From a virus (Duplodnaviria > Caudoviricetes): DNA of 64,000 nucleotides. This document shows, one piece after another, positions 9,984 to 21,236 of this stretch. Positions within the stretch are counted from its first letter, which is position 1, and each line of letters opens with the position of its first letter. The translations under genes and the position numbers were made by a program. Below the pieces are notes generated by a model that saw only the letters and a list, made by a program, of their open reading frames with translations, was not told the DNA's origin and searched no databases. The stretch lies in IMG/VR virus record IMGVR_UViG_3300031994_000022; one strand, 5' to 3'.

Positions 9984-10209
9984 AATAACTAATTCTAATA
10001 TAAATAATTTTTCTTCATGTCACCATGAAGTTCAGACCATATCAAACTCCTAATAGGAGTGTCCCCATTTCGAGCACTTGCTCTACGTCTTATGACTGGT
10101 CGTTGAACCTTTTTGCTTACGCAAACTTGGCTGCTGATTGTCTCATTGAGAGTTCCCAGCAATTAGAGGACTTTCGACATATAGTTACCTATATGAAGCG
10201 CATTAATTT

Positions 10210-10750
10210 ACGAATTCTGACTTTGTTCTACTCCCCACATTTCCATTTGCTTACCCTTGTACATCCATTGAAATTTATATCCACAAGGAAGAATCGCCCA
10301 TGTTGGAAAGTCATTATTATACAAACTTGCAGTCGCAACCACAAGCCATCTATTCCATACACCCTTTTCATTTTTGATATCACAATATAATCCCGTAGGA
10401 AATACACTGGATACCACATCTGAAAATTTCTCTTTATAATAAGGTATAGTACATTCGTAAGATGGTTTAAACATAATACGAAGATCAACTTCATCCTTAT
10501 TTAACGACTTATATGCTGATAAAATATATTTTATTTCTACCGGTATTTTTGTTTTAGAACATTCTGGATGAAGATTAGTATTTTTGCCTTTTTCATCATC
10601 ATGTTCGTAATCATAAAAATACGCTATCATACTAGCTGGATCATCATACCAAGTATGCTCAATAATATCTTGAGCCTCATAACTGTGACGTTGTCCATTA
10701 GTATGAACACCACCAACACTAAGACTACGTTTGTAATCATTAAAATTCAT
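10210..10750 (-). CDS. exon 1 of intron-split virion (neck) protein (~395 aa spliced)
   Basis: GGAGGTG RBS before ATG 10750; ends at the group I 5' splice site. Confidence 0.85.
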
Positions 10751-13872: not shown

Positions 13873-15663
13873 TTACTTTGAAAATATTCCACCATATCTA
13901 GAAGATGACTTAGCAGCCTTCTTAGATGGATTACCAAATAGTTTCATACCAACCTGTTTCTTCTCAGGTTCTTCAGATGAAAACTCAATTTTATTGTGCT
14001 TTGAATACTCAAGCAACATTTTGTCAAGCTTATCAGTTAGCTCATCCGTAGAGAGATCGAAGTAATTCTCTCGCTTTGATAACTCGACAAATTCCTTGGT
14101 TTCTCGAATATTCTTCCAATCCTCTGACTGAAGAATTTCCTTCTTTGCTGGTTCGGACTCGTACTTTGCAAGTTTTTCCTCAATAGCAGAGTAGCTAGTT
14201 TTCATCTGTTCAAGAGCATTCTTCTCATCAGCAGATAAGAACGAAACAAATGTTTCAATTCTATCACCCTTAAGTGAATATACATCTTTCTTTACAGAAT
14301 AAGACTGACGATAGTGCTTATTATTCCACCAATCGTGGAATTCAACTATCTTAGTTTCTTCAATAACATCACAATCATACCATGCACCATCAGACTCACC
14401 GTAAGTATCATTTACAAGAATTGTAAGAGCATTCAGCTTTTCCTTGAGTGATACTGAATAATCTTTCTTTGCACCCTTAACAGACACAGTATAATTTACG
14501 GAATAGTAATTAACATCTTCTGGATCTTCGGTATTATCATCAGGTTCATCAGGTTGTTCTTCTTCCTCAGATTGTACTTCAGGAGTATCGTCTTTATCAT
14601 CAGGATTCTCATCATCGTCCTGATTTTCCTTGTCATCATCATCCTTGTCGCCATCCTCATCGTCATCGTCTTGATCCTCATCGTCAACAATTACCGAATC
14701 ATCATCTTCAGACTTCTTACGCTTTTTCGGACTATCTTCAAAGTTTTCTGTAGAAGGAGTGAAATGCTCTGCAAATACTGCTTCGAGTTCCTCATCTGAA
14801 AGTCCTTCGTACTCAAAATCAATTTCATCAATTGACTTTCCATATTGTTCTAAAAGCTTTTCAAACATTGGTTTTGGATTACCTCCTTCCTCTAGAATTT
14901 CGTTGTTTATATTAAGGTTATCTATTTTCTCGTTAAGAGCAGATAACATCTCAATAACTTTTTCATTCTGTGAGAATATACTATTATTCTCGACACTAAA
15001 GTCGGCAATTGAAATATTGCTTCCAACCATACCAGGCTTTACTTCTTCGCCTGTGTAACGATTCTCTTCAAGTATTGTGACTCCACTAAATCTAAACTTG
15101 TCTATACACAATACTTTCTCTTTAGAGTCATAAGATAATTCATCTACAAATAACTCTACACTCACAGACAATCTCTTTTCTCTTTCTATAATTTCTGCTG
15201 CTTTACTGTATGTTTTCCAAATAATACCAGTACCGTCAACATAAGTCTTATCCATATCTACATCATATACTAATTTAAGATCGGCTGATTCCGGTATACA
15301 GCCAACTGGGATTTCCTCATATACGGTTTCACCATCATCATTAACATACAACTCATGACTAGCAAAAACATCTTTCTCACCATTGTTATATATATATCCT
15401 AAGATTGGCATATTATACGCAGTAGGCAAAGCATTCTCCATAGCCTTTTCAGATATAAAACTTTGGTTGGCATTTTTCTCTGTGTGACAAAGTCTGATAG
15501 GACAATACATATTCAATTCATCATCTTCAGACTGATCATATGTAAACGGTTCATCTATATGAACTACAATGGTAGTGTCATTATCAGCAGAACTGAATTT
15601 TACATTCTTATTCTGAGTTACATAATAATTATATAAATCAGAGAGATATAAGAGTTTTTTCAC
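13873..15663 (-). CDS. prohead protease/scaffold protein
   Basis: LCHTEKNAN, PILGYI, LSVSVEL protease-like N-domain; acidic linker; coiled-coil C-terminus. Confidence 0.75.
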   Translation of the reverse strand: MKKLLYLSDLYNYYVTQNKNVKFSSADNDTTIVVHIDEPFTYDQSEDDELNMYCPIRLCHTEKNANQSFISEKAMENALPTAYNMPILGYIYNNGEKDVFASHELYVNDDGETVYEEIPVGCIPESADLKLVYDVDMDKTYVDGTGIIWKTYSKAAEIIEREKRLSVSVELFVDELSYDSKEKVLCIDKFRFSGVTILEENRYTGEEVKPGMVGSNISIADFSVENNSIFSQNEKVIEMLSALNEKIDNLNINNEILEEGGNPKPMFEKLLEQYGKSIDEIDFEYEGLSDEELEAVFAEHFTPSTENFEDSPKKRKKSEDDDSVIVDDEDQDDDDEDGDKDDDDKENQDDDENPDDKDDTPEVQSEEEEQPDEPDDNTEDPEDVNYYSVNYTVSVKGAKKDYSVSLKEKLNALTILVNDTYGESDGAWYDCDVIEETKIVEFHDWWNNKHYRQSYSVKKDVYSLKGDRIETFVSFLSADEKNALEQMKTSYSAIEEKLAKYESEPAKKEILQSEDWKNIRETKEFVELSKRENYFDLSTDELTDKLDKMLLEYSKHNKIEFSSEEPEKKQVGMKLFGNPSKKAAKSSSRYGGIFSK

Positions 15664-15691
15664 TTCTCCATATTCCTCCTTTCTTTAAAAA

Positions 15692-15730
15692 TAACAAAAC
15701 GCAGAGCAGACCTTTTACAATCTACTCTGC
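15692..15730 (-). terminator. terminator-like hairpin closing the RNA array
   Basis: GCAGAGTAGA/TCTGCTCTGC stem followed by GTTTTGTTATTTTT. Confidence 0.55.
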
Positions 15731-15763
15731 AACCGTAATCAATACGGTTCTCTCCTTATATGT

Positions 15764-15806
15764 GCCTCCATTGGACACTTCATTGAGAGGTGTGGAGGCT
15801 TCTGTC
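15764..15806 (-). ncRNA. abiF-like RNA hairpin, copy B
   Basis: GACAGAA-GCCTCCA-CACCTCTCAATGAAGTGTCCAA-TGGAGGC; covaries with copy A. Confidence 0.6.
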
Positions 15807-15811
15807 AAAAT

Positions 15812-15858
15812 GACCCGACGTGGTACGCATCAAAGTGAGAGGCGTGTCGGGTTCTGTC
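15812..15858 (-). ncRNA. abiF-like RNA hairpin, copy A
   Basis: GACAGAA-CCCGAC-ACGCCTCTCACTTTGATGCGTACCAC-GTCGGG; resembles the abiF motif as recalled. Confidence 0.7.
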
Positions 15859-16353
15859 CAATATAAAAGGAGCTGTGTGTACCAGCTCCAATTCCTCGCA
15901 ATATTGGCAGTAATTACAGTTTACTGCCGATAATTCCTTAGCGAGTCTCGGCGTTTTTCTTTTCAGATATCTGCATCCTAGTCAGGGTAAGACTGCCGCA
16001 GCTTACGGTAGAACCTCCACGTAAGAACCTGACAAACCTTACGCTTCAACGGTTAAACTTAACTAGTGAGTAATATTCTAACCGTTACTCGCGGTACGAA
16101 AATGTCACGAAAACTATATACTATTCGTGACACAATCTCAGCTCCTCCTACCAATAGGATAGGTGAGTAAGTAGATAATGCGTAGTCCCGGTGTTAACAC
16201 ATAACACTTACCACGACGGAGGCAGGATACTACGACTTACAATATCTGTCAGAGCGTACTCCACATGGAAGTCTGACAATCCCATGCTTCACAGCAGATC
16301 CGCCAATACCCAAGGGCGAAGAGTAGTTTAAGTGCTTAACTCAGGCACAAACA

Positions 16354-16396
16354 TTTTCAAACCGACCTTTTATATTGCGGTAATCGGTCTCCGCAT
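16354..16396 (-). ncRNA. CptI-like pseudoknot
   Basis: TGCGG-AGACCGATTA-CCGCA-ATATAAAA-GGTCGG-TTTGAAAA. Confidence 0.7.
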
Positions 16397-16610
16397 GGGT
16401 TCTGTTTATTTTGCAACTTTCATTTGATGGCTTATGGTAAGTTGCCACCTTTATACATCTCCACATTCACCGCATACCATCACGGATTCCGCTTCATAGA
16501 CATCTACACTTAGGCGGTGAACACCATGTATTGGCTCTGTTCTCGCTCCACTCTTGTGTCTTTACCACAGATTTAAAGTCTACACCTACGCTACTGACTA
16601 CCAATATTTT

Positions 16611-16644
16611 GAATCGCTAGAAGTTTTAAGTCGTCCTAAAGACC
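16611..16644 (-). ncRNA. ToxI-like pseudoknot, copy 1
   Basis: GGTC-TTTAGGAC-GACT-TAAAAC-TTCTAG; 30/34 identical to 16911-16944. Confidence 0.65.
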
Positions 16645-16910
16645 ATATGGTTATCCGATATTGCAGTGTTTTACAGATTCGTCATCCAACCATATGAACA
16701 CCTCTGGAAACGTGCCTCCTCGGAATAGGGCTACACCAGTACCATTACGCACCTACGTGTTTAGGTCTTTTCGTTGACCAAATATTAAAGCGACTCGGCG
16801 CGGATCTTCACCGCCATCGTGCTAGTTATAGGGAATTCGCCTCGGTTACCAACCTTAACGCCGCTTATAATAATCCACTTTTTATTTGGAAGCGATGGGA
16901 CACTTCGTTT

Positions 16911-16944
16911 GAATCACTAGGAGTTTTAGGTCATCCTAAAGACC
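16911..16944 (-). ncRNA. ToxI-like pseudoknot, copy 2
   Basis: GGTC-TTTAGGAT-GACC-TAAAAC-TCCTAG. Confidence 0.65.
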
Positions 16945-17361
16945 GCTCGTAATGGGTTTAATGTCTCCATACCGACAAAAAGAACGGCATTGATGCTGGC
17001 ATCGCTACCGCTGAAAAACCTTTGGCTTTTCGTTCATAATCCACCGTTGTAGCATAGGTCGTGGGACACCTACCGCACCGTTCTTGGAATTTCTTTGTTG
17101 TGGGAGTTACCCACTTCATTATTTTTCCTCACACTTCGCCGCCACACTAAATGACTATAAAGGTTCTCACTTGAATTTTAAGGTGGACGAGATATTCCAC
17201 CAGTAGAGTTATTGCGCATTACGGTAACTTCGCTTACCTCGGTACTGTCGGTTAAGGGAGCCGACTCCTATTGGATAGCTGACAACATATCACCTATTGC
17301 CGAGCTTTCATGGTATATTTAACGCCCCCCACTAGGGAAAGAGGTGCTATCCGTTGTCCTC

Positions 17362-17507
17362 TTATATTTTACTGCCCTATCAAAACCATCATAGGACTCT
17401 TCACCCGGTCAATTTTTATTTTACCGACGAGTCAGAACCGTCACTCGTCATCTTCGCTCGGTCAGTTTTTATATTACCGACGAGTCAGAACCGTCACTCG
17501 TCTCATC
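17362..17507 (-). repeat. three tandem 52-53 nt structured repeats
   Basis: hairpins at 17479-17502, 17426-17449, 17374-17397; loop GAYGGTTYTG conserved, stem covaries. Confidence 0.85.
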
Positions 17508-17567
17508 TATTATGGAATTATTTTTTGTTTTATTTGGTTGATTTGGATCATTTGCGTAATACCATTT

Positions 17568-17595
17568 AAAAAAGACGACAAATTAACGTCGTCTT
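17568..17595 (-). terminator. intrinsic terminator after portal
   Basis: AAGACGAC/GTCGTCTT stem plus T-run. Confidence 0.7.
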
Positions 17596-17621
17596 AAAAA
17601 TATTGTTTTATTATCTAAAAG

Positions 17622-19178
17622 TTATCCTTCGCTCCTTGCCCTAGAACGTTCACCTGAATCAGATAAATCTCCTTCATCTACTTGTGGTCTTCCTTGTCCA
17701 ATTTCAGAAGTATATCCATCTTCAGTACCACTTTGGGTATAAGATGAATTTAGAGGACGAAGTTTATCACTAAGACCTAATAATTCTTCTTCTACATAAT
17801 TCATACAGATAGTGTCTTTTTCACTAAATCCATTAAGAGTATTGATAGCTAACTTAGTTGGTAATCCATACTGACCAGACGAAAGTAGCTGTTCTCTATA
17901 GTCTGACTTTGTATATGTTGAAATTGGCATAAAACGTACTTTGCAGTCATCGGCACCCTCATAACTAAGCATCCTCATTACCCAAGATTGTATTTGTGGT
18001 AGAAGAGAAGAGATGGCAAATTCTGTGTTGGCAATGGTAGCCATCTTAAATGCATAAGTATTATTGATGGTAGCACCATTAAGTATTTCAGCACCACCAG
18101 CCGTATTTAGTACTTGCTCTGTAGCTTTAGCAACTTTAGTAGTATCAGTTGCTTTATCATCACCAAAGCTTATTTCATGCAATTGTCCAGGAACAATGGC
18201 AGTAGCTATATAATCCGGAATACTATCATTAAGCTTATCAAAATATGGTAATGAAAGATCCGGGTCGATTTTCCAATCGTCTATTCGCTTCGATCCGGTT
18301 ATGGTTTCTAATTCGTACCACAGAAGCTTGTATACGCTCGCAGCATCCCCCGCTGCTTGAATGTCCTCAAGGTCTGCAAGATTTATAATACTATTAAATA
18401 TACCGCTCCAGGGACTGACTATTACATCCAAATCTTCAATTCTAAACTTCATACAAACTTGATACTTAGAATCTATCAGTTGCCACTTTTCACCAGTGCT
18501 TTGATAATTTTTCCAAACATCTTCAAATACTTCTGGTATATATTCAATAAGTTCTTGTCTATTTCTTAGCCATGAGGCATCAAAAAAATAAGACAGATCA
18601 CCTGTCATAAATTTTCCAGCTATCTTACAATAATCAGCTGGTAATTGCATATGAAATACCCCAGTATCATCATGAATATAGATACCATAATAAATATCTT
18701 GAACAAAACAAGTAAATATTATTGGATAAAATTCCTGCTGTAATCTCATTATTGAAACTGCATCAAGAGTATTTTGATAAGATTTCATTATCTTATCAGC
18801 ATTATTTTCTTTGACTAAATCATATTTAGGAATAATGCTTCGACAATCTAAACAAAACATTTCACTAAAGAAATGAACAATCCTATAAAATACATGAGAC
18901 CTATACAGAAGGTACCAGGCTAACGCTCGCAAATTCTTTTCTTGAGATCCGATATTTTGTAAATATTGTCTTAATCTTTCTTTATCAAAAGTAGTAATTG
19001 TTTTATTATAAGTCTTACCAATATCTCTTAATTGTTTAAGCATCTTATCTTTATTTTCAGTAGCAAAATTTGTAACCATATCTAAACGGTCTTTATTTTT
19101 GCTATACCAATCTTTTATTTCAGCCACTGTCGGCTGTTTAGGTGCATTCGACACCTGTGTAGTCTTTGTTCGTGCCAA
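17622..19178 (-). CDS. portal protein
   Basis: 518 aa directly downstream of terminase; C-terminal SSYTQSG...GRP tail typical of SPbeta-like portals. Confidence 0.75.
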   Translation of the reverse strand: MARTKTTQVSNAPKQPTVAEIKDWYSKNKDRLDMVTNFATENKDKMLKQLRDIGKTYNKTITTFDKERLRQYLQNIGSQEKNLRALAWYLLYRSHVFYRIVHFFSEMFCLDCRSIIPKYDLVKENNADKIMKSYQNTLDAVSIMRLQQEFYPIIFTCFVQDIYYGIYIHDDTGVFHMQLPADYCKIAGKFMTGDLSYFFDASWLRNRQELIEYIPEVFEDVWKNYQSTGEKWQLIDSKYQVCMKFRIEDLDVIVSPWSGIFNSIINLADLEDIQAAGDAASVYKLLWYELETITGSKRIDDWKIDPDLSLPYFDKLNDSIPDYIATAIVPGQLHEISFGDDKATDTTKVAKATEQVLNTAGGAEILNGATINNTYAFKMATIANTEFAISSLLPQIQSWVMRMLSYEGADDCKVRFMPISTYTKSDYREQLLSSGQYGLPTKLAINTLNGFSEKDTICMNYVEEELLGLSDKLRPLNSSYTQSGTEDGYTSEIGQGRPQVDEGDLSDSGERSRARSEG

Positions 19179-19190
19179 GTCGCACCTCCT

Positions 19191-21236
19191 TTATCTGCCC
19201 ACTATTTTTGCTGGGCGAATTGTTAATTTATCTAAAAGATAATTTGAAGATACTTTTGGCTTCTGAAGAAGCAACTTACGTCTTTCCTCAGCCAATGCGT
19301 GTCCAAGCATACAACAAGTATAGGCACGGTCGTCATGCATTTTATTAGCTTTTTCTGGGGTTAACTCAAAAGAGTCCTTACCGGATTCCCTTTTCTTTCT
19401 CACCATATTAACCAATTCTTCTTTCAAAGCATCGATATTTGCTAAAGCAATTTTATCTTTCCAATCCAACTTTATAGTTTTAGTATTAACCGATTGTACC
19501 TTACCTAATTCTTCTTGTAATTTATCTTCAAATTCTTTTTCATTTAGTTTTTTCTTTTTTAATTCTTCAATTATTCTTCCACGTTCTTTGTCTAATTTCT
19601 TCTGGTCAATATCAAATACAGTAAGATATTCTTTATTATCATATGTACTTGTGAAACCAATCTTATCTTGATTAAGCATTTCTATTAGTGCTTCATACAT
19701 CATCGATTTAAATTTAGCCGGTTCCATAAGATGAACCTTGTCCACCGCATTTGGGAATCTACCAACATAATCAGCAGAGTATTCTTTATCTATTAATCCT
19801 CTATGAATAATACCATCAGAAGTTTCCCAATCTGGCATCAAGTAATCGGCTATGTTCACACCGCCTCCTCCCGTACCAGCATCAATCCAAATACCGACAA
19901 TATTTTCATATGCATCAGCACCAGCGTTGTAATCAAGAATCATTTGTTTTAAATATTCAATCTGATCAGGCGTTCTCATAGGACTCTTGATTCGTTTACC
20001 GACATCCAAAAGATTAACACCATTAACAATCTTTGCTCTTTTATCAATGCTTCCATCTACTTGTATAAAATCATAAAACTCAGCCACAAGTATAAATGAG
20101 TTATCCACCTTACGAGCAGGGTCATAAAATAACCCATATTTCTTATCACCAGTTTCATTACAATGAATTGGCTTTCGAGTTTCCTCATTACGAGTAATAA
20201 CACCACGTTTTACAATGGCATCCGAACCAGCTTCTGTTGTAAATTGACAGTAATACTCGCGCCTCGCCTTTTCTGGATTTGTTCTCATTTCAGATTCGAC
20301 AGTAGAGCGAGAGAGTAGTGGAGCAATAACTTCACCATGTAATGTCGGTTTGAATGCGAGTTCACAATCAATGTGAAGAACACAATAATCTGGGTCTCCC
20401 ATAATCTGACGTTTAGCAAAATCTCTATATAAAGAATAAAACTTTGTATCAGTAGAAGATGCACTACTAATATAAAACTTTTGGTTTGGTATATCTGTGG
20501 CAAACGTTCTTTGTCTAATAGGGTCAATAGAACGACCACTTGCATCTTTACCAGTCTTTAAGCTTTTATTTACAATAGCAAACGCCGAATATACATTCAT
20601 CATTTCTTCCGATAAAAAACCGCTTTCATCGAAGATTACGTTTCCTCTCATTCCTCTCTTTTTATCTATATTACTGTTGAGCGTCTGAGTCATCGACCCA
20701 TTATAGACTTCGTAATTGAATCCATTAGAAGAATGACTAAAACCATCGCCAGCTGCATTTTTGATTTTTATTTCATCTTTAAATATTTTTCCTGTAGAAC
20801 CTGCAAAGGTATCTATGTTATCATTTGCAATACGTTCGAGCGTTGTGAAAGTTTGTTCTGCCTGAGAACCAGATCCTGAAGCAATATATGTCCAATAATT
20901 ACAGAAACACATGTCCTTCATCATGGTTTCTAAATCTATAACTGTTGATTTTCCCCAACCTCGAGTCGCAACGATTAATACATTTGGACAATTCCATGAA
21001 CGCTGTACTGCTAAAGCTTGAGAATCCAAAAGTTCAATATTAAACCAAAAATCTATACCAGCTACGGGATTACATTGAAAATATTTCTGCATCATCGCAA
21101 TAGCCTGTAACGCTTCAATTTTTCTCGTAGACATAGGATAATCAATTGGCTTTACAAATATTCCATAATCTTTATAGAAATCTTTATCATATTGCAAATC
21201 ATAATCAAAACTATTCGGTGTCCATATCTGACTCAT
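19191..21236 (-). CDS. terL: terminase large subunit
   Basis: Walker A ATRGWGKS, Walker B VIFDESG, nuclease motifs YDPAR...D, IDAGTGGGG, HDDRAY. Confidence 0.9.
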   Translation of the reverse strand: MSQIWTPNSFDYDLQYDKDFYKDYGIFVKPIDYPMSTRKIEALQAIAMMQKYFQCNPVAGIDFWFNIELLDSQALAVQRSWNCPNVLIVATRGWGKSTVIDLETMMKDMCFCNYWTYIASGSGSQAEQTFTTLERIANDNIDTFAGSTGKIFKDEIKIKNAAGDGFSHSSNGFNYEVYNGSMTQTLNSNIDKKRGMRGNVIFDESGFLSEEMMNVYSAFAIVNKSLKTGKDASGRSIDPIRQRTFATDIPNQKFYISSASSTDTKFYSLYRDFAKRQIMGDPDYCVLHIDCELAFKPTLHGEVIAPLLSRSTVESEMRTNPEKARREYYCQFTTEAGSDAIVKRGVITRNEETRKPIHCNETGDKKYGLFYDPARKVDNSFILVAEFYDFIQVDGSIDKRAKIVNGVNLLDVGKRIKSPMRTPDQIEYLKQMILDYNAGADAYENIVGIWIDAGTGGGGVNIADYLMPDWETSDGIIHRGLIDKEYSADYVGRFPNAVDKVHLMEPAKFKSMMYEALIEMLNQDKIGFTSTYDNKEYLTVFDIDQKKLDKERGRIIEELKKKKLNEKEFEDKLQEELGKVQSVNTKTIKLDWKDKIALANIDALKEELVNMVRKKRESGKDSFELTPEKANKMHDDRAYTCCMLGHALAEERRKLLLQKPKVSSNYLLDKLTIRPAKIVGR

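What the first reader, a model, noticed from the sequence alone, without database searches (positions are those of the whole stretch)
16354..16396. Solitary CptI-like pseudoknot
Seen: TGCGG-AGACCGATTA-CCGCA-ATATAAAA-GGTCGG-TTTGAAAA, a 5 bp stem whose loop GACC pairs with downstream GGTC. The GACCGA loop, AUAUAAA linker and GGUCGG-UUGA tail closely resemble the Eubacterium rectale CptI repeat as I recall it, with a different stem 1. CptIN was described in Lachnospiraceae, the likely host group. Inference: anti-CptN decoy.
Basis: partly seen in the sequence, partly recalled or inferred. Interest (0 to 1): 0.85.

Follow-up and report, generated by a model that had tools for sequence, protein, structure and literature searches.

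The report
Phage-borne lone CptI antitoxin mimic
A 142-kb phage carries one copy of the small RNA knot that Lachnospiraceae bacteria use to keep their CptN suicide RNase switched off, but it has no CptN gene, so the RNA is most likely a decoy against that defence, although no binding has been tested.

Summary
On the minus strand, 16401->16357 aligns without gaps to the published 45-nt CptI unit of E. rectale. Loop 1, both strands of stem 2, the A-rich loop 2 and the UUGA^AA junction are kept. All six stem-1 pairs are kept, five of them through changes on both sides. Covariance models built from bacterial CptN-linked repeats hit only this site in the window (34.2 bits, E~3e-8; stricter model 27.8 bits, E~4e-5). 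Genuine toxin-linked CptI units of diverged CptIN loci score the same (33-38 bits). The 141.8-kb phage has no CptN. The unit is one copy inside a ~112-nt cassette (knot plus two hairpins). That cassette recurs, almost invariant, in eight phage or metagenome contigs in different flanks, and sits in a 1.9-kb ORF-free RNA island between the portal gene and the next head-module gene. Near-canonical single units also occur in other unrelated phage-like elements, two of them inside tRNA arrays. An anti-CptN decoy is the best reading (~0.5) but is untested. The 5' tail that CptN grips is not canonical, position 45 varies among relatives, and a competing nested fold exists. This scan had already flagged antitoxin-like RNA arrays on this genome.

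The parts
16357..16401 (-). CptI-type 45-nt pseudoknot unit (nt 1-45 in the numbering of PMC4627078)
   Evidence: Ungapped alignment to the published unit. CM R1 34.2 bits E~3e-8; CM R2 27.8 bits E~4e-5. All 12 pairs of S1 and S2 are formed.
16396..16401 (-). 5' single-stranded tail, AACCCA (canonical: AAGUUU)
   Evidence: Invariant in all eight window-type copies. It differs from the tail of every toxin-linked unit examined. In the crystal this tail forms interface 1, with U4 and position 6 in hydrophobic pockets.
16376..16395 (-). Stem 1: nt 7-12 (16390-16395) pair with nt 20 and 22-26 (16382, 16376-16380). The hairpin loop holds L1 (G13, 16389) and the 5' strand of stem 2.
   Evidence: Six standard pairs. 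Five differ on both sides from the canonical pairs.
16383..16388 (-). Stem 2, 5' strand (nt 14-19)
   Evidence: Identical to CptI(Er). Pairs with 16361-16366, including an extra A14-U41 pair.
16367..16375 (-). Loop 2 (nt 27-35), the A-minor-twist segment; keeps A29 and the kink base U30
   Evidence: 8 of 9 bases identical to CptI(Er). A29U and delta-U30 abolish antitoxicity in the published assay.
16361..16366 (-). Stem 2, 3' strand (nt 36-41)
   Evidence: GUCGGU, identical to the units of the CptN-linked locus L164. In relative L144, C38U keeps the pair as G-U.
16354..16360 (-). 3' tail UUGA plus the following A run; this is the position of CptN self-cleavage in the canonical array (after A45 = 16357)
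   Evidence: Matches the canonical UUGA^AAG junction in the window. Position 45 is C or U in relatives. It is also U or C in some toxin-linked bacterial arrays.
16326..16352 (-). Hairpin 2 of the cassette
   Evidence: Conserved in all copies. One compensatory G-C to A-U change in L002/L146.
16300..16319 (-). Hairpin 3 of the cassette. Its 5' arm and loop are also complementary to the 5' tail and stem-1 5' strand of the knot (alternative fold).
   Evidence: Invariant in all copies (it served as my anchor pattern). Alternative 14-bp long-range helix: duplex -17 kcal/mol against -10.9 +/- 2.5 in shuffles, p~0.02-0.03.
16298..16411 (-). The ~112-nt cassette that travels as a unit among related phages
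   Evidence: At least 5 different upstream and 3 different downstream contexts in 8 contigs. Absent from relatives L132 and L134-L137, which keep the flanking modules.
15664..17621 (-). ORF-free RNA island, co-oriented with the flanking genes: the portal gene lies 5' of it on the coding strand (17622-19178) and a 596-aa gene of unknown function 3' of it (13873-15663)
   Evidence: No long ORF. Portal and large terminase identified by PHROGs. Modular presence/absence among relatives. Sub-threshold drum and abiF RNA matches.

Best explanation
The element is a diverged single unit of the CptI RNA antitoxin family (E. rectale type). It is carried without its toxin by a large tailed phage, inside a swappable non-coding cassette in the head-gene operon.

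Proposed mechanism (inferred, not shown). The island is transcribed with, or alongside, the late genes. The unit folds into the CptI H-type pseudoknot and presents its 3' tail and junction to the active-site groove of a host-encoded or rival-prophage-encoded CptN RNase. This replaces the host's labile CptI when host transcription is shut off, so CptN stays inhibited and abortive infection fails. That is the logic shown for pseudo-ToxI of phage phiTE.

Shown here:
- The sequence and structure are homologous to CptI.
- The phage genome has no CptN.
- The knot is conserved while its flanks change.
- Lone CptI units recur in unrelated phage-like elements.

Inferred: expression, folding, binding to any CptN, and any benefit to the phage.
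For: 1. Homology. CM hits of 34.2 and 27.8 bits are unique in the window and in the genome. Toxin-linked CptI units of diverged CptIN loci (L163, L164) score 33.2 and 37.8 bits with the same model, so this unit lies within the range of working antitoxins.

2. Structure under selection. All 12 pairs are formed. Five S1 pairs are changed on both sides relative to the canonical unit. The functionally tested L2 bases A29 and U30 are kept. In relative L144 the only stem change gives G-U.

3. No CptN in 141.8 kb, by tblastn and by a profile search with all filters off.

4. The knot is 100% identical in 7 of 8 copies, although the cassette sits in at least 5 upstream and 3 downstream contexts and is missing from other relatives. 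This accessory, mobile behaviour is typical of counter-defence cargo.

5. Independent lone units in other elements share nothing but the 45 nt:
- L004/L009 is 41/41 identical to CptI(Er). It lies between tRNAs in a 150-kb viral contig that equals a region of the Mediterraneibacter hominis chromosome, which also has a CptIN-like locus.
- L052 lies inside a tRNA array next to NrdD and DNA ligase genes.
- L003/L073 sit in arrays of other small knots; L073 has an abiF-like RNA 120 nt away.

6. The target is plentiful. More than 120 species genomes, nearly all Lachnospiraceae, carry the near-invariant canonical array, mostly followed by CptN (PDB 4RMO match, E 7e-81). Some phages carry complete CptIN loci.

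7. Precedent. Expanded pseudo-ToxI repeats suppress ToxIN abortive infection (PMC3475682). A single CptI(Er) repeat suffices for antitoxicity.
Against: - The 5' tail is AACCCA, not AAG(U/A)UU. In the crystal this tail makes the larger protein interface, and it is conserved in all toxin-linked subtypes seen.
- CptI RNAs are highly selective: three non-cognate CptI/CptN pairs gave no cross-protection.
- Position 45, the scissile and specifically read adenine, is A only in the window; it is C or U in relatives.
- No cognate CptN with this exact unit type was found among the 120 bacterial loci listed or the 17 viral CptN loci.
- CptIN gave no phage resistance in the only published tests, which used E. 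coli and coliphages.
- The host is unknown. Only distant portal relatives (26-30% identity) turned up, in 3 of 401 Lachnospiraceae genomes sampled.
- A nested alternative fold would sequester the 5' tail and the stem-1 5' strand.
- No convincing internal promoter: 6 promoter-like sites against 4.0 expected.
Confidence: 0.5

Rival explanations
1. The knot is a structural or cis-acting module of a larger phage non-coding RNA, with no dealings with CptN. It could be a stability, processing or 'punctuation' element, or one state of a conformational switch. It would descend from, or be built like, CptI only because this compact A-minor pseudoknot is a useful building block.
For: - It never occurs alone. 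It always comes with two hairpins as a 112-nt cassette, inside a 1.9-kb island packed with other small knots, drum-like and abiF-like motifs.
- RNAalifold predicts a 14-bp closing helix between the 5' tail plus stem-1 strand and hairpin 3 (-17 kcal/mol, p~0.02-0.03 against shuffles). Its total energy is comparable to that of the pseudoknot state.
- The two CptN-contact tails are the least canonical parts.
Against: - A generic structural module would not be expected to keep L1, S2 and L2 base for base like the Lachnospiraceae antitoxin. Nor would it score like true antitoxins of neighbouring subfamilies.
- Other phage-like elements carry exact or near-exact canonical units, tails included (L004, L005).
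- The closing helix has no covariation support, because the sequences are invariant.
Confidence: 0.25
2. It is a relic. A phage ancestor captured a cptIN locus or a cptI gene, the toxin and second repeat decayed, and the remaining unit has no present function.
For: - Complete CptIN loci exist on viral contigs.
- Toxin-less single units with promoter and terminator are common in bacterial genomes: 16 single and 5 double units lack CptN, against 71 with it. Earlier notes of this scan say the same.
- A hairpin follows the unit at the place where the canonical terminator lies.
Against: - Every stem-1 pair and all stem-2 pairs are intact despite replacement of five pairs.
- The unit is identical across contigs whose flanks and neighbouring modules differ.
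- Beyond the 45 nt there is no detectable similarity to canonical loci, so the capture is old. Neutral decay should then have broken the knot.
Confidence: 0.13
3. It is a true antitoxin for a toxin encoded elsewhere on the phage or its host that is not recognisably CptN. It would be an unlinked type III-like pair rather than a decoy.
For: - Most neighbouring phage proteins have no Pfam family.
- The non-canonical 5' tail could fit a different partner.
Against: - No CptN-like ORF in any frame.
- All known type III systems have antitoxin and toxin adjacent (PMC3401426).
- The cassette is present or absent among relatives without an obvious co-varying gene in the loci examined.
Confidence: 0.07

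Closest known systems
CptI, RNA antitoxin of the CptIN type III toxin-antitoxin system of Eubacterium (Agathobacter) rectale (PDB 4RMO; Rao et al. 2015, PMC4627078; family defined by Blower et al. 2012, PMC3401426)
   Same: - 45-nt length and H-type pseudoknot topology.
- One-base loop 1 (G13).
- Stem 2 sequence.
- A-rich loop 2 with A29 and the U30 kink.
- UUGA^AA junction (in the window copy).
- CM score equal to that of toxin-linked units of sister subfamilies.
   Different: - One copy instead of about 2-3 tandem repeats.
- No cptN gene, and no promoter/terminator pair of its own.
- 5' tail AACCCA instead of AAGUUU.
- Stem 1 rebuilt with other base pairs.
- G41 replaced by U, as in the L163/L164 subtype.
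- Position 45 not conserved among relatives.
- Carried by a phage inside a larger non-coding cassette.
pseudo-ToxI of Pectobacterium phage phiTE (Blower et al. 2012, PLoS Genet., PMC3475682)
   Same: - A phage-encoded, toxin-less sequence resembling the RNA antitoxin of a type III system.
- It lies in an intergenic locus of a ~142-kb phage.
- Proposed action is molecular mimicry that keeps the host toxin inhibited.
   Different: - It mimics ToxI (36 nt), not CptI.
- Wild-type phiTE has 1.5 repeats that do not encode a whole knot, and it needs expansion to work. Here one complete knot is present in the wild type.
- Function was shown experimentally there and not here.
Toxin-less ('orphan') CptI units in bacterial chromosomes
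   Same: The same RNA without an adjacent toxin. Earlier notes of this scan describe such arrays (e1-1181291, e1-5238409, e1-5231053).
   Different: The bacterial orphans keep the canonical tails, promoter and terminator, and look like recent toxin deletions. The phage unit has diverged tails, lacks those signals and sits in a mobile RNA cassette.
RNA anti-CRISPRs: solitary CRISPR repeat units in phages (cited from my own knowledge: Camara-Wilpert et al. 2023, Nature; not checked here)
   Same: The idea is the same: a virus carries a lone copy of the RNA partner of a host defence protein and uses it as a decoy.
   Different: A different defence system and RNA; there is no sequence or structural relation.

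Membership tests
CptI RNA (antitoxin of CptIN type III TA, E. rectale type) | 45-nt H-type pseudoknot: S1 (nt 7-12 with 20-26), one-base L1, S2 (nt 14-19 with 36-41) | tested here: met
   Ungapped fit. All 12 pairs are standard pairs. On a 41-sequence alignment, 89% of cells are paired against 80% in shuffles and 26-47% when the partner is slid.
CptI RNA (antitoxin of CptIN type III TA, E. rectale type) | A-rich L2 (nt 27-35) forming the extended A-minor twist, with A29 and the kink base U30, both required for antitoxicity | tested here: met
   8 of 9 bases identical, and A29 and U30 are present. That the twist actually forms cannot be tested with these tools.
CptI RNA (antitoxin of CptIN type III TA, E. 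rectale type) | Significant similarity to toxin-linked CptI units in sequence plus structure | tested here: met
   R1 34.2 bits, E~3e-8; R2 27.8 bits, E~4e-5. Toxin-linked L163/L164 units score 33-38 bits. Calibration is short, so E-values are rough.
CptI RNA (antitoxin of CptIN type III TA, E. rectale type) | 5' single-stranded tail AAG(U/A)UU (interface 1 with CptN) | tested here: not met
   The tail is AACCCA in all 8 window-type copies. The canonical tail is conserved in the Er, L149 and L163/L164 subtypes. However, the first units of L149-type arrays also lack it.
CptI RNA (antitoxin of CptIN type III TA, E. rectale type) | 3' tail ending G44-A45, followed by AA(G): the CptN self-cleavage site | tested here: inconclusive
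   Met in the window (UUGA^AAA). Position 45 is C or U in relatives. U45 and C45 also occur in some toxin-linked bacterial arrays.
CptI RNA (antitoxin of CptIN type III TA, E. rectale type) | Tandem array of about 1.9-3.4 repeats (PMC3401426) | tested here: not met
   One unit only. Hairpin 2 that follows is not detected as a second unit by either CM.
CptI RNA (antitoxin of CptIN type III TA, E. rectale type) | cptN toxin gene directly downstream, after a terminator | tested here: not met
   No CptN anywhere in the 141.8-kb genome. In bacteria CptN starts 3-160 nt after the last repeat.
CptI RNA (antitoxin of CptIN type III TA, E. rectale type) | Binds and neutralises a CptN RNase | not testable with these tools
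   No protein-RNA modelling or assay is available here.
Phage-encoded antitoxin-RNA mimic (pseudo-ToxI kind) | Encoded by a phage that lacks the cognate toxin | tested here: met
   Virus record, about 95% complete. Large terminase and portal lie next to the island. No CptN.
Phage-encoded antitoxin-RNA mimic (pseudo-ToxI kind) | Resembles the antitoxin of a system present in the phage's host | tested here: inconclusive
   The resemblance is shown, but the host is not identified. For the separate L004/L009 prophage, the host chromosome does carry a CptIN-like locus.
Phage-encoded antitoxin-RNA mimic (pseudo-ToxI kind) | Expressed during infection and suppresses abortive infection | not testable with these tools
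   Only position and strand (co-oriented, within the head-gene operon) suggest transcription.

The most novel reading that the evidence does not exclude
The 1.9-kb island would be a phage counter-defence locus made of swappable RNA cassettes, each mimicking the RNA antitoxin of a different host abortive-infection system. These would be CptI here, abiF-type RNAs 500 nt downstream, and further knots of unknown target.

The CptI-type cassette, together with lone CptI units parked in the tRNA arrays of other phages, would then be the first natural evidence that CptIN is an anti-phage system in gut and rumen Lachnospiraceae, and that phages routinely disarm type III systems with single-unit RNA decoys.
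Probability: 0.35. Interest if true: 0.85.

Novelty: new variant of a known kind. Interest (0 to 1): 0.62.

Why it matters
[quoted passage not shown] The only published tests found plasmid stabilisation but no phage resistance, and they were done in E. coli with coliphages.

A phage that keeps a structurally intact, toxin-less CptI unit points to CptN as a real threat to phages in their natural hosts. So do several unrelated phage-like elements that carry near-canonical single units, two of them inside tRNA arrays. This gives concrete RNA/toxin pairs to test.

It would also extend RNA-antitoxin mimicry from one laboratory case (phiTE pseudo-ToxI) to wild phages. The window unit is also a natural mutant series. 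It has a fully rebuilt stem 1, a changed 5' tail and a variable cleavage base, so it shows which parts of CptI are needed for what.

Tried and rejected
- **Plain local alignment.** Aligning the published CptI against the window gives score 28, and shuffles reach 33. It cannot establish the match, because it ignores the compensatory stem.
- **Single-strand MFE folding.** Folding the 50-nt and 79-nt stretches gives z-scores of -1.1 and -0.3. The same holds for genuine CptI (z -1.3), because the pseudoknot is not modelled. Uninformative.
- **Rfam 15.** It has no hit for this element at E<=10. Only sub-threshold drum and abiF matches lie nearby.
- **blastn of the island against 50,697 GenBank phages.** No match.
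- **Host search with the portal protein.** In 401 Lachnospiraceae genomes there were only 3 distant hits (26-30% identity), so there is no host call.
- **Looser viral scan.** A scan anchored on loop 2 plus the stem-2 3' strand (15 fixed bases) returned 119 rows. None outside the known copies passed a stem check, so these are chance matches.
- **Cassette as a decayed whole cptI gene (two repeats plus terminator).** MAFFT places hairpin 2 opposite the canonical terminator, but there is no convincing sequence similarity beyond the 45 nt. I dropped this as evidence and keep it only as a possibility.
- **An abiF-like motif near the L092 orphan**, seen by eye, was not confirmed by Rfam.
- **Metagenome anchor scan.** It gave only two further copies, too few for covariation statistics on the cassette.
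- **Literature.** Three full-text searches found no paper describing phage-borne lone CptI units. This is absence from the library searched only.

Full report
**What is there.** The window is the reverse strand of G000:C1:55766-119765, a 141,835-bp IMG/VR virus record estimated 95% complete. It sits in a stretch, 15664-17621, with no long ORF. On the coding (minus) strand this stretch follows a PHROG portal gene (17622-19178), which itself follows the large terminase (19191-21236), and it precedes a 596-aa gene of unknown function. All are on the minus strand.

**Comparison with published CptI.** I did not rely on memory. I took the CptI(Er) unit from the reverse primer CptI-WT in Rao et al. 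2015 and confirmed the numbering with the A29U and delta-U30 primers. The paper gives the architecture:
- S1, a one-base L1 (G13) and S2.
- A long A-rich L2 (A27-G35) forming an extended A-minor twist.
- A29 and U30 are needed for antitoxicity.
- Cleavage occurs after A45.

The window element aligns to this unit without a gap (unit = 16401->16357):
- L1, both S2 strands, L2 (8 of 9 bases) and U42-A45 are the same.
- G41 is U, which adds an A14-U41 pair.
- All six S1 pairs are kept, five with both partners changed.

**Is it more than chance?** A simple local alignment is not significant, so I built models from real loci. A pattern shared by the published unit and the window element found more than 120 loci in species-representative bacterial genomes, nearly all Lachnospiraceae or other Clostridia. 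The ORF downstream of the units in these loci is CptN (PDB 4RMO chain A, E 7e-81). The usual architecture is a promoter, two 45-nt repeats, a terminator and CptN. Among loci with at least 700 nt of downstream sequence:

| Units detected | With CptN | Without CptN |
|---|---|---|
| 2-3 | 61 | 5 |
| 1 | 10 | 16 |

- Model R1 (38 distinct first-repeat units, S1 as structure) hits 16354-16403(-) at 34.2 bits, E~3e-8, full length. The next hit is 11.9 bits.
- My pattern forced some columns in that set. I therefore built R2 from units lying directly upstream of CptN only, half of them second repeats found by adjacency rather than by pattern. It gives 27.8 bits, E~4e-5, with the next hit at 12.2 bits.
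- The second repeats supply unbiased covariation for the published fold: G17-C38 becomes A-U, and A10-U23 becomes G-C.
- On a 41-row alignment, 89% of cells pair, against 80% in shuffles and 26-47% in slid controls. The window type forms all 12 pairs.

**Where it sits within the family.** Seventeen viral contigs encode CptN relatives with their own repeat arrays. Their units are all 45 nt and fall into subtypes:
- L149 type.
- L163/L164 type, whose S2 3' strand plus tail, GUCGGU-UUGA, is identical to the window's.

With model R1 the toxin-linked L163 and L164 units score 33.2 and 37.8 bits, the same as the window unit. At the RNA level the element is therefore as good a CptI as working antitoxins of sister subfamilies.

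The exception is the 5' tail. It reads AAG(U/A)UU in every toxin-linked subtype and AACCCA here. In the crystal this tail makes the larger of the two CptN interfaces, and CptI/CptN pairs are highly selective. Against that, the first unit of the L149-type arrays also lacks the canonical tail.

**No toxin, and a mobile cassette.**
- tblastn with 14 CptNs and an unfiltered profile search of all six frames find no CptN in the phage.
- The CM finds one strong hit in the genome and one weak one (16.5 bits) beside a tRNA outside the window.
- Portal-anchored relatives show that the island is modular. L132 and L134-L137 keep neighbouring modules but lack 16645->16177, the stretch that includes the element.
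- I anchored on the conserved hairpin 3 rather than on the knot. This recovered eight copies (window, L002, L006, L007, L008, L144, L145, L146).
- They share a ~112-nt cassette (knot, hairpin 2, hairpin 3). It lies in at least five upstream and three downstream contexts.
- The knot is identical in seven copies. L144 has G13A and C38U, the latter keeping a G-U pair.
- Position 45 is A, C or U. U45 and C45 also occur in toxin-linked bacterial arrays.

**Other phage-like elements with lone units.**
- The exact-pattern scan of IMG/VR found three more viral contigs. L003 (107 kb) has a covarying stem and sits behind other small knots. L004 (150 kb) is 41/41 identical to CptI(Er) and directly abuts a tRNA. 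L005 (21.5 kb) has one unit plus a terminator.
- L004 equals a region of the Mediterraneibacter hominis NSJ-55 chromosome (L009). That chromosome also carries a promoter-CptI-terminator-CptN locus elsewhere, with the CptN match split over two frames.
- In bacterial assemblies, L052 lies inside a tRNA array beside NrdD and NAD-ligase genes. L073 lies beside a tail-fibre gene, with an abiF-like RNA 120 nt upstream that is 90% identical to the window's abiF-like motif.
- These loci share only the 45 nt with one another, apart from L003/L073, which share 88 nt.

**Mechanism.** The best-supported reading is antitoxin mimicry. The phage supplies a CptI-like RNA, so that CptN encoded by the host or by a resident prophage stays inhibited after host transcription stops. 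This was shown for expanded pseudo-ToxI in phiTE, and it is plausible because one CptI(Er) unit is sufficient in the published assay. Homology, structural integrity, lack of a toxin, mobility and recurrence are shown. Expression, binding and benefit are inferred.

The non-canonical 5' tail, the variable position 45, the unknown host and the lack of any demonstrated anti-phage role for CptIN keep my confidence near 0.5.

**An unexplained feature.** RNAalifold folds the cassette into a nested structure. In it the 5' tail and the stem-1 5' strand pair with hairpin 3's arm and loop (14 bp). The duplex energy is -17 kcal/mol against -10.9 +/- 2.5 in shuffles (p~0.02-0.03). The total energy is comparable to that of the pseudoknot state. 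The sequences are invariant, so covariation cannot decide. This supports the main rival, that the knot is a module or switch within a larger RNA.

**Relation to earlier notes of this scan.** Other agents had already read neighbouring parts of this island as antitoxin-like RNA arrays and toxin-less abiF RNAs. They had also seen toxin-less CptI arrays in bacteria. I used these as leads only. What this report adds:
- A formal test that this unit belongs to the E. rectale-type CptI family.
- Its cassette boundaries and variants.
- The comparison with toxin-linked subtypes.
- The survey of lone units in other phage-like elements.

**Verdict.** The feature is real and is a new variant of a known kind: a lone, phage-borne, tail-diverged CptI unit. 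No paper describing this was found in the library searched.

Noticed in passing
window 17350-17502 (-): Three tandem units of 52-53 nt (two 92% identical, the third about 70%). Each has a 7-bp stem whose loop can pair with a downstream GACCG after an A-rich linker. This is the same topology as CptI, but neither CptI model matches them. Relatives carry fewer copies (gap of 60-78 nt instead of 155).
   Followed up: partly
window 15946-16054 (-) and 16409-16502 (-): Two sub-threshold matches to drum RNA (RF02958; 37.9 and 26.4 bits, gathering score 43). The second lies directly upstream of the CptI-type cassette in the window and in L008.
   Followed up: no
window 15813-15851 (-), second copy about 52 nt downstream: abiF RNA motif (RF03085) at 32.1 bits, below the gathering score of 37, in two tandem copies. 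The gene that follows has no Pfam family. A 48-nt stretch is 90% identical to an abiF-like motif (32.7 bits) that lies 120 nt upstream of the lone CptI unit in L073.
   Followed up: partly
window 10013-10219 (-): Group I intron match (RF00028, 69.5 bits, above threshold).
   Followed up: no
G000:C1:41219-41274 (-), outside the window (L130:1501-1556): Weak second hit of the CptI model (16.5 bits, E 0.04). It has an ACCGAU ... GGUCGG pairing and lies just downstream of a tRNA 3' end, so there may be another small-RNA cluster there.
   Followed up: no
L010-L128 (bacterial CptIN loci): The first CptI repeat is almost invariant across more than 100 Lachnospiraceae species (62 of about 120 copies identical over 50 nt). 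The second repeat is a fixed, covarying variant (G10-C23, A17-U38, often G33). This is striking conservation for an RNA whose toxins differ by up to 35%.
   Followed up: partly
L149-L165 (viral contigs): Complete CptIN loci on 60-108-kb viral contigs. CptN is 49-57% identical to the E. rectale type. In the L149 group the first unit of the array lacks the canonical 5' tail.
   Followed up: partly
L004:14581-14760 = L009:6247-6420; L052:1336-2437: Lone CptI units embedded in phage or prophage tRNA arrays. The unit starts at the last bases of a tRNA in L004. This suggests release by tRNA-processing enzymes.
   Followed up: partly
L147 (M. hominis NSJ-55, G002:C1:1638800-1640700): A chromosomal locus with a promoter, a single CptI unit and a terminator, followed by a CptN whose tblastn match is split over two overlapping frames. 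This could be a frameshift or a broken toxin.
   Followed up: no
L005:3565-4620 (+): A 351-aa 'abortive infection resistance protein' (phrog_2158, E 2e-63) lies convergent to the lone CptI unit of this 21.5-kb viral contig.
   Followed up: no
L073:5814-5886 (+): skipping-rope RNA (RF02924, 56 bits, above threshold) about 1 kb from the lone CptI unit.
   Followed up: no
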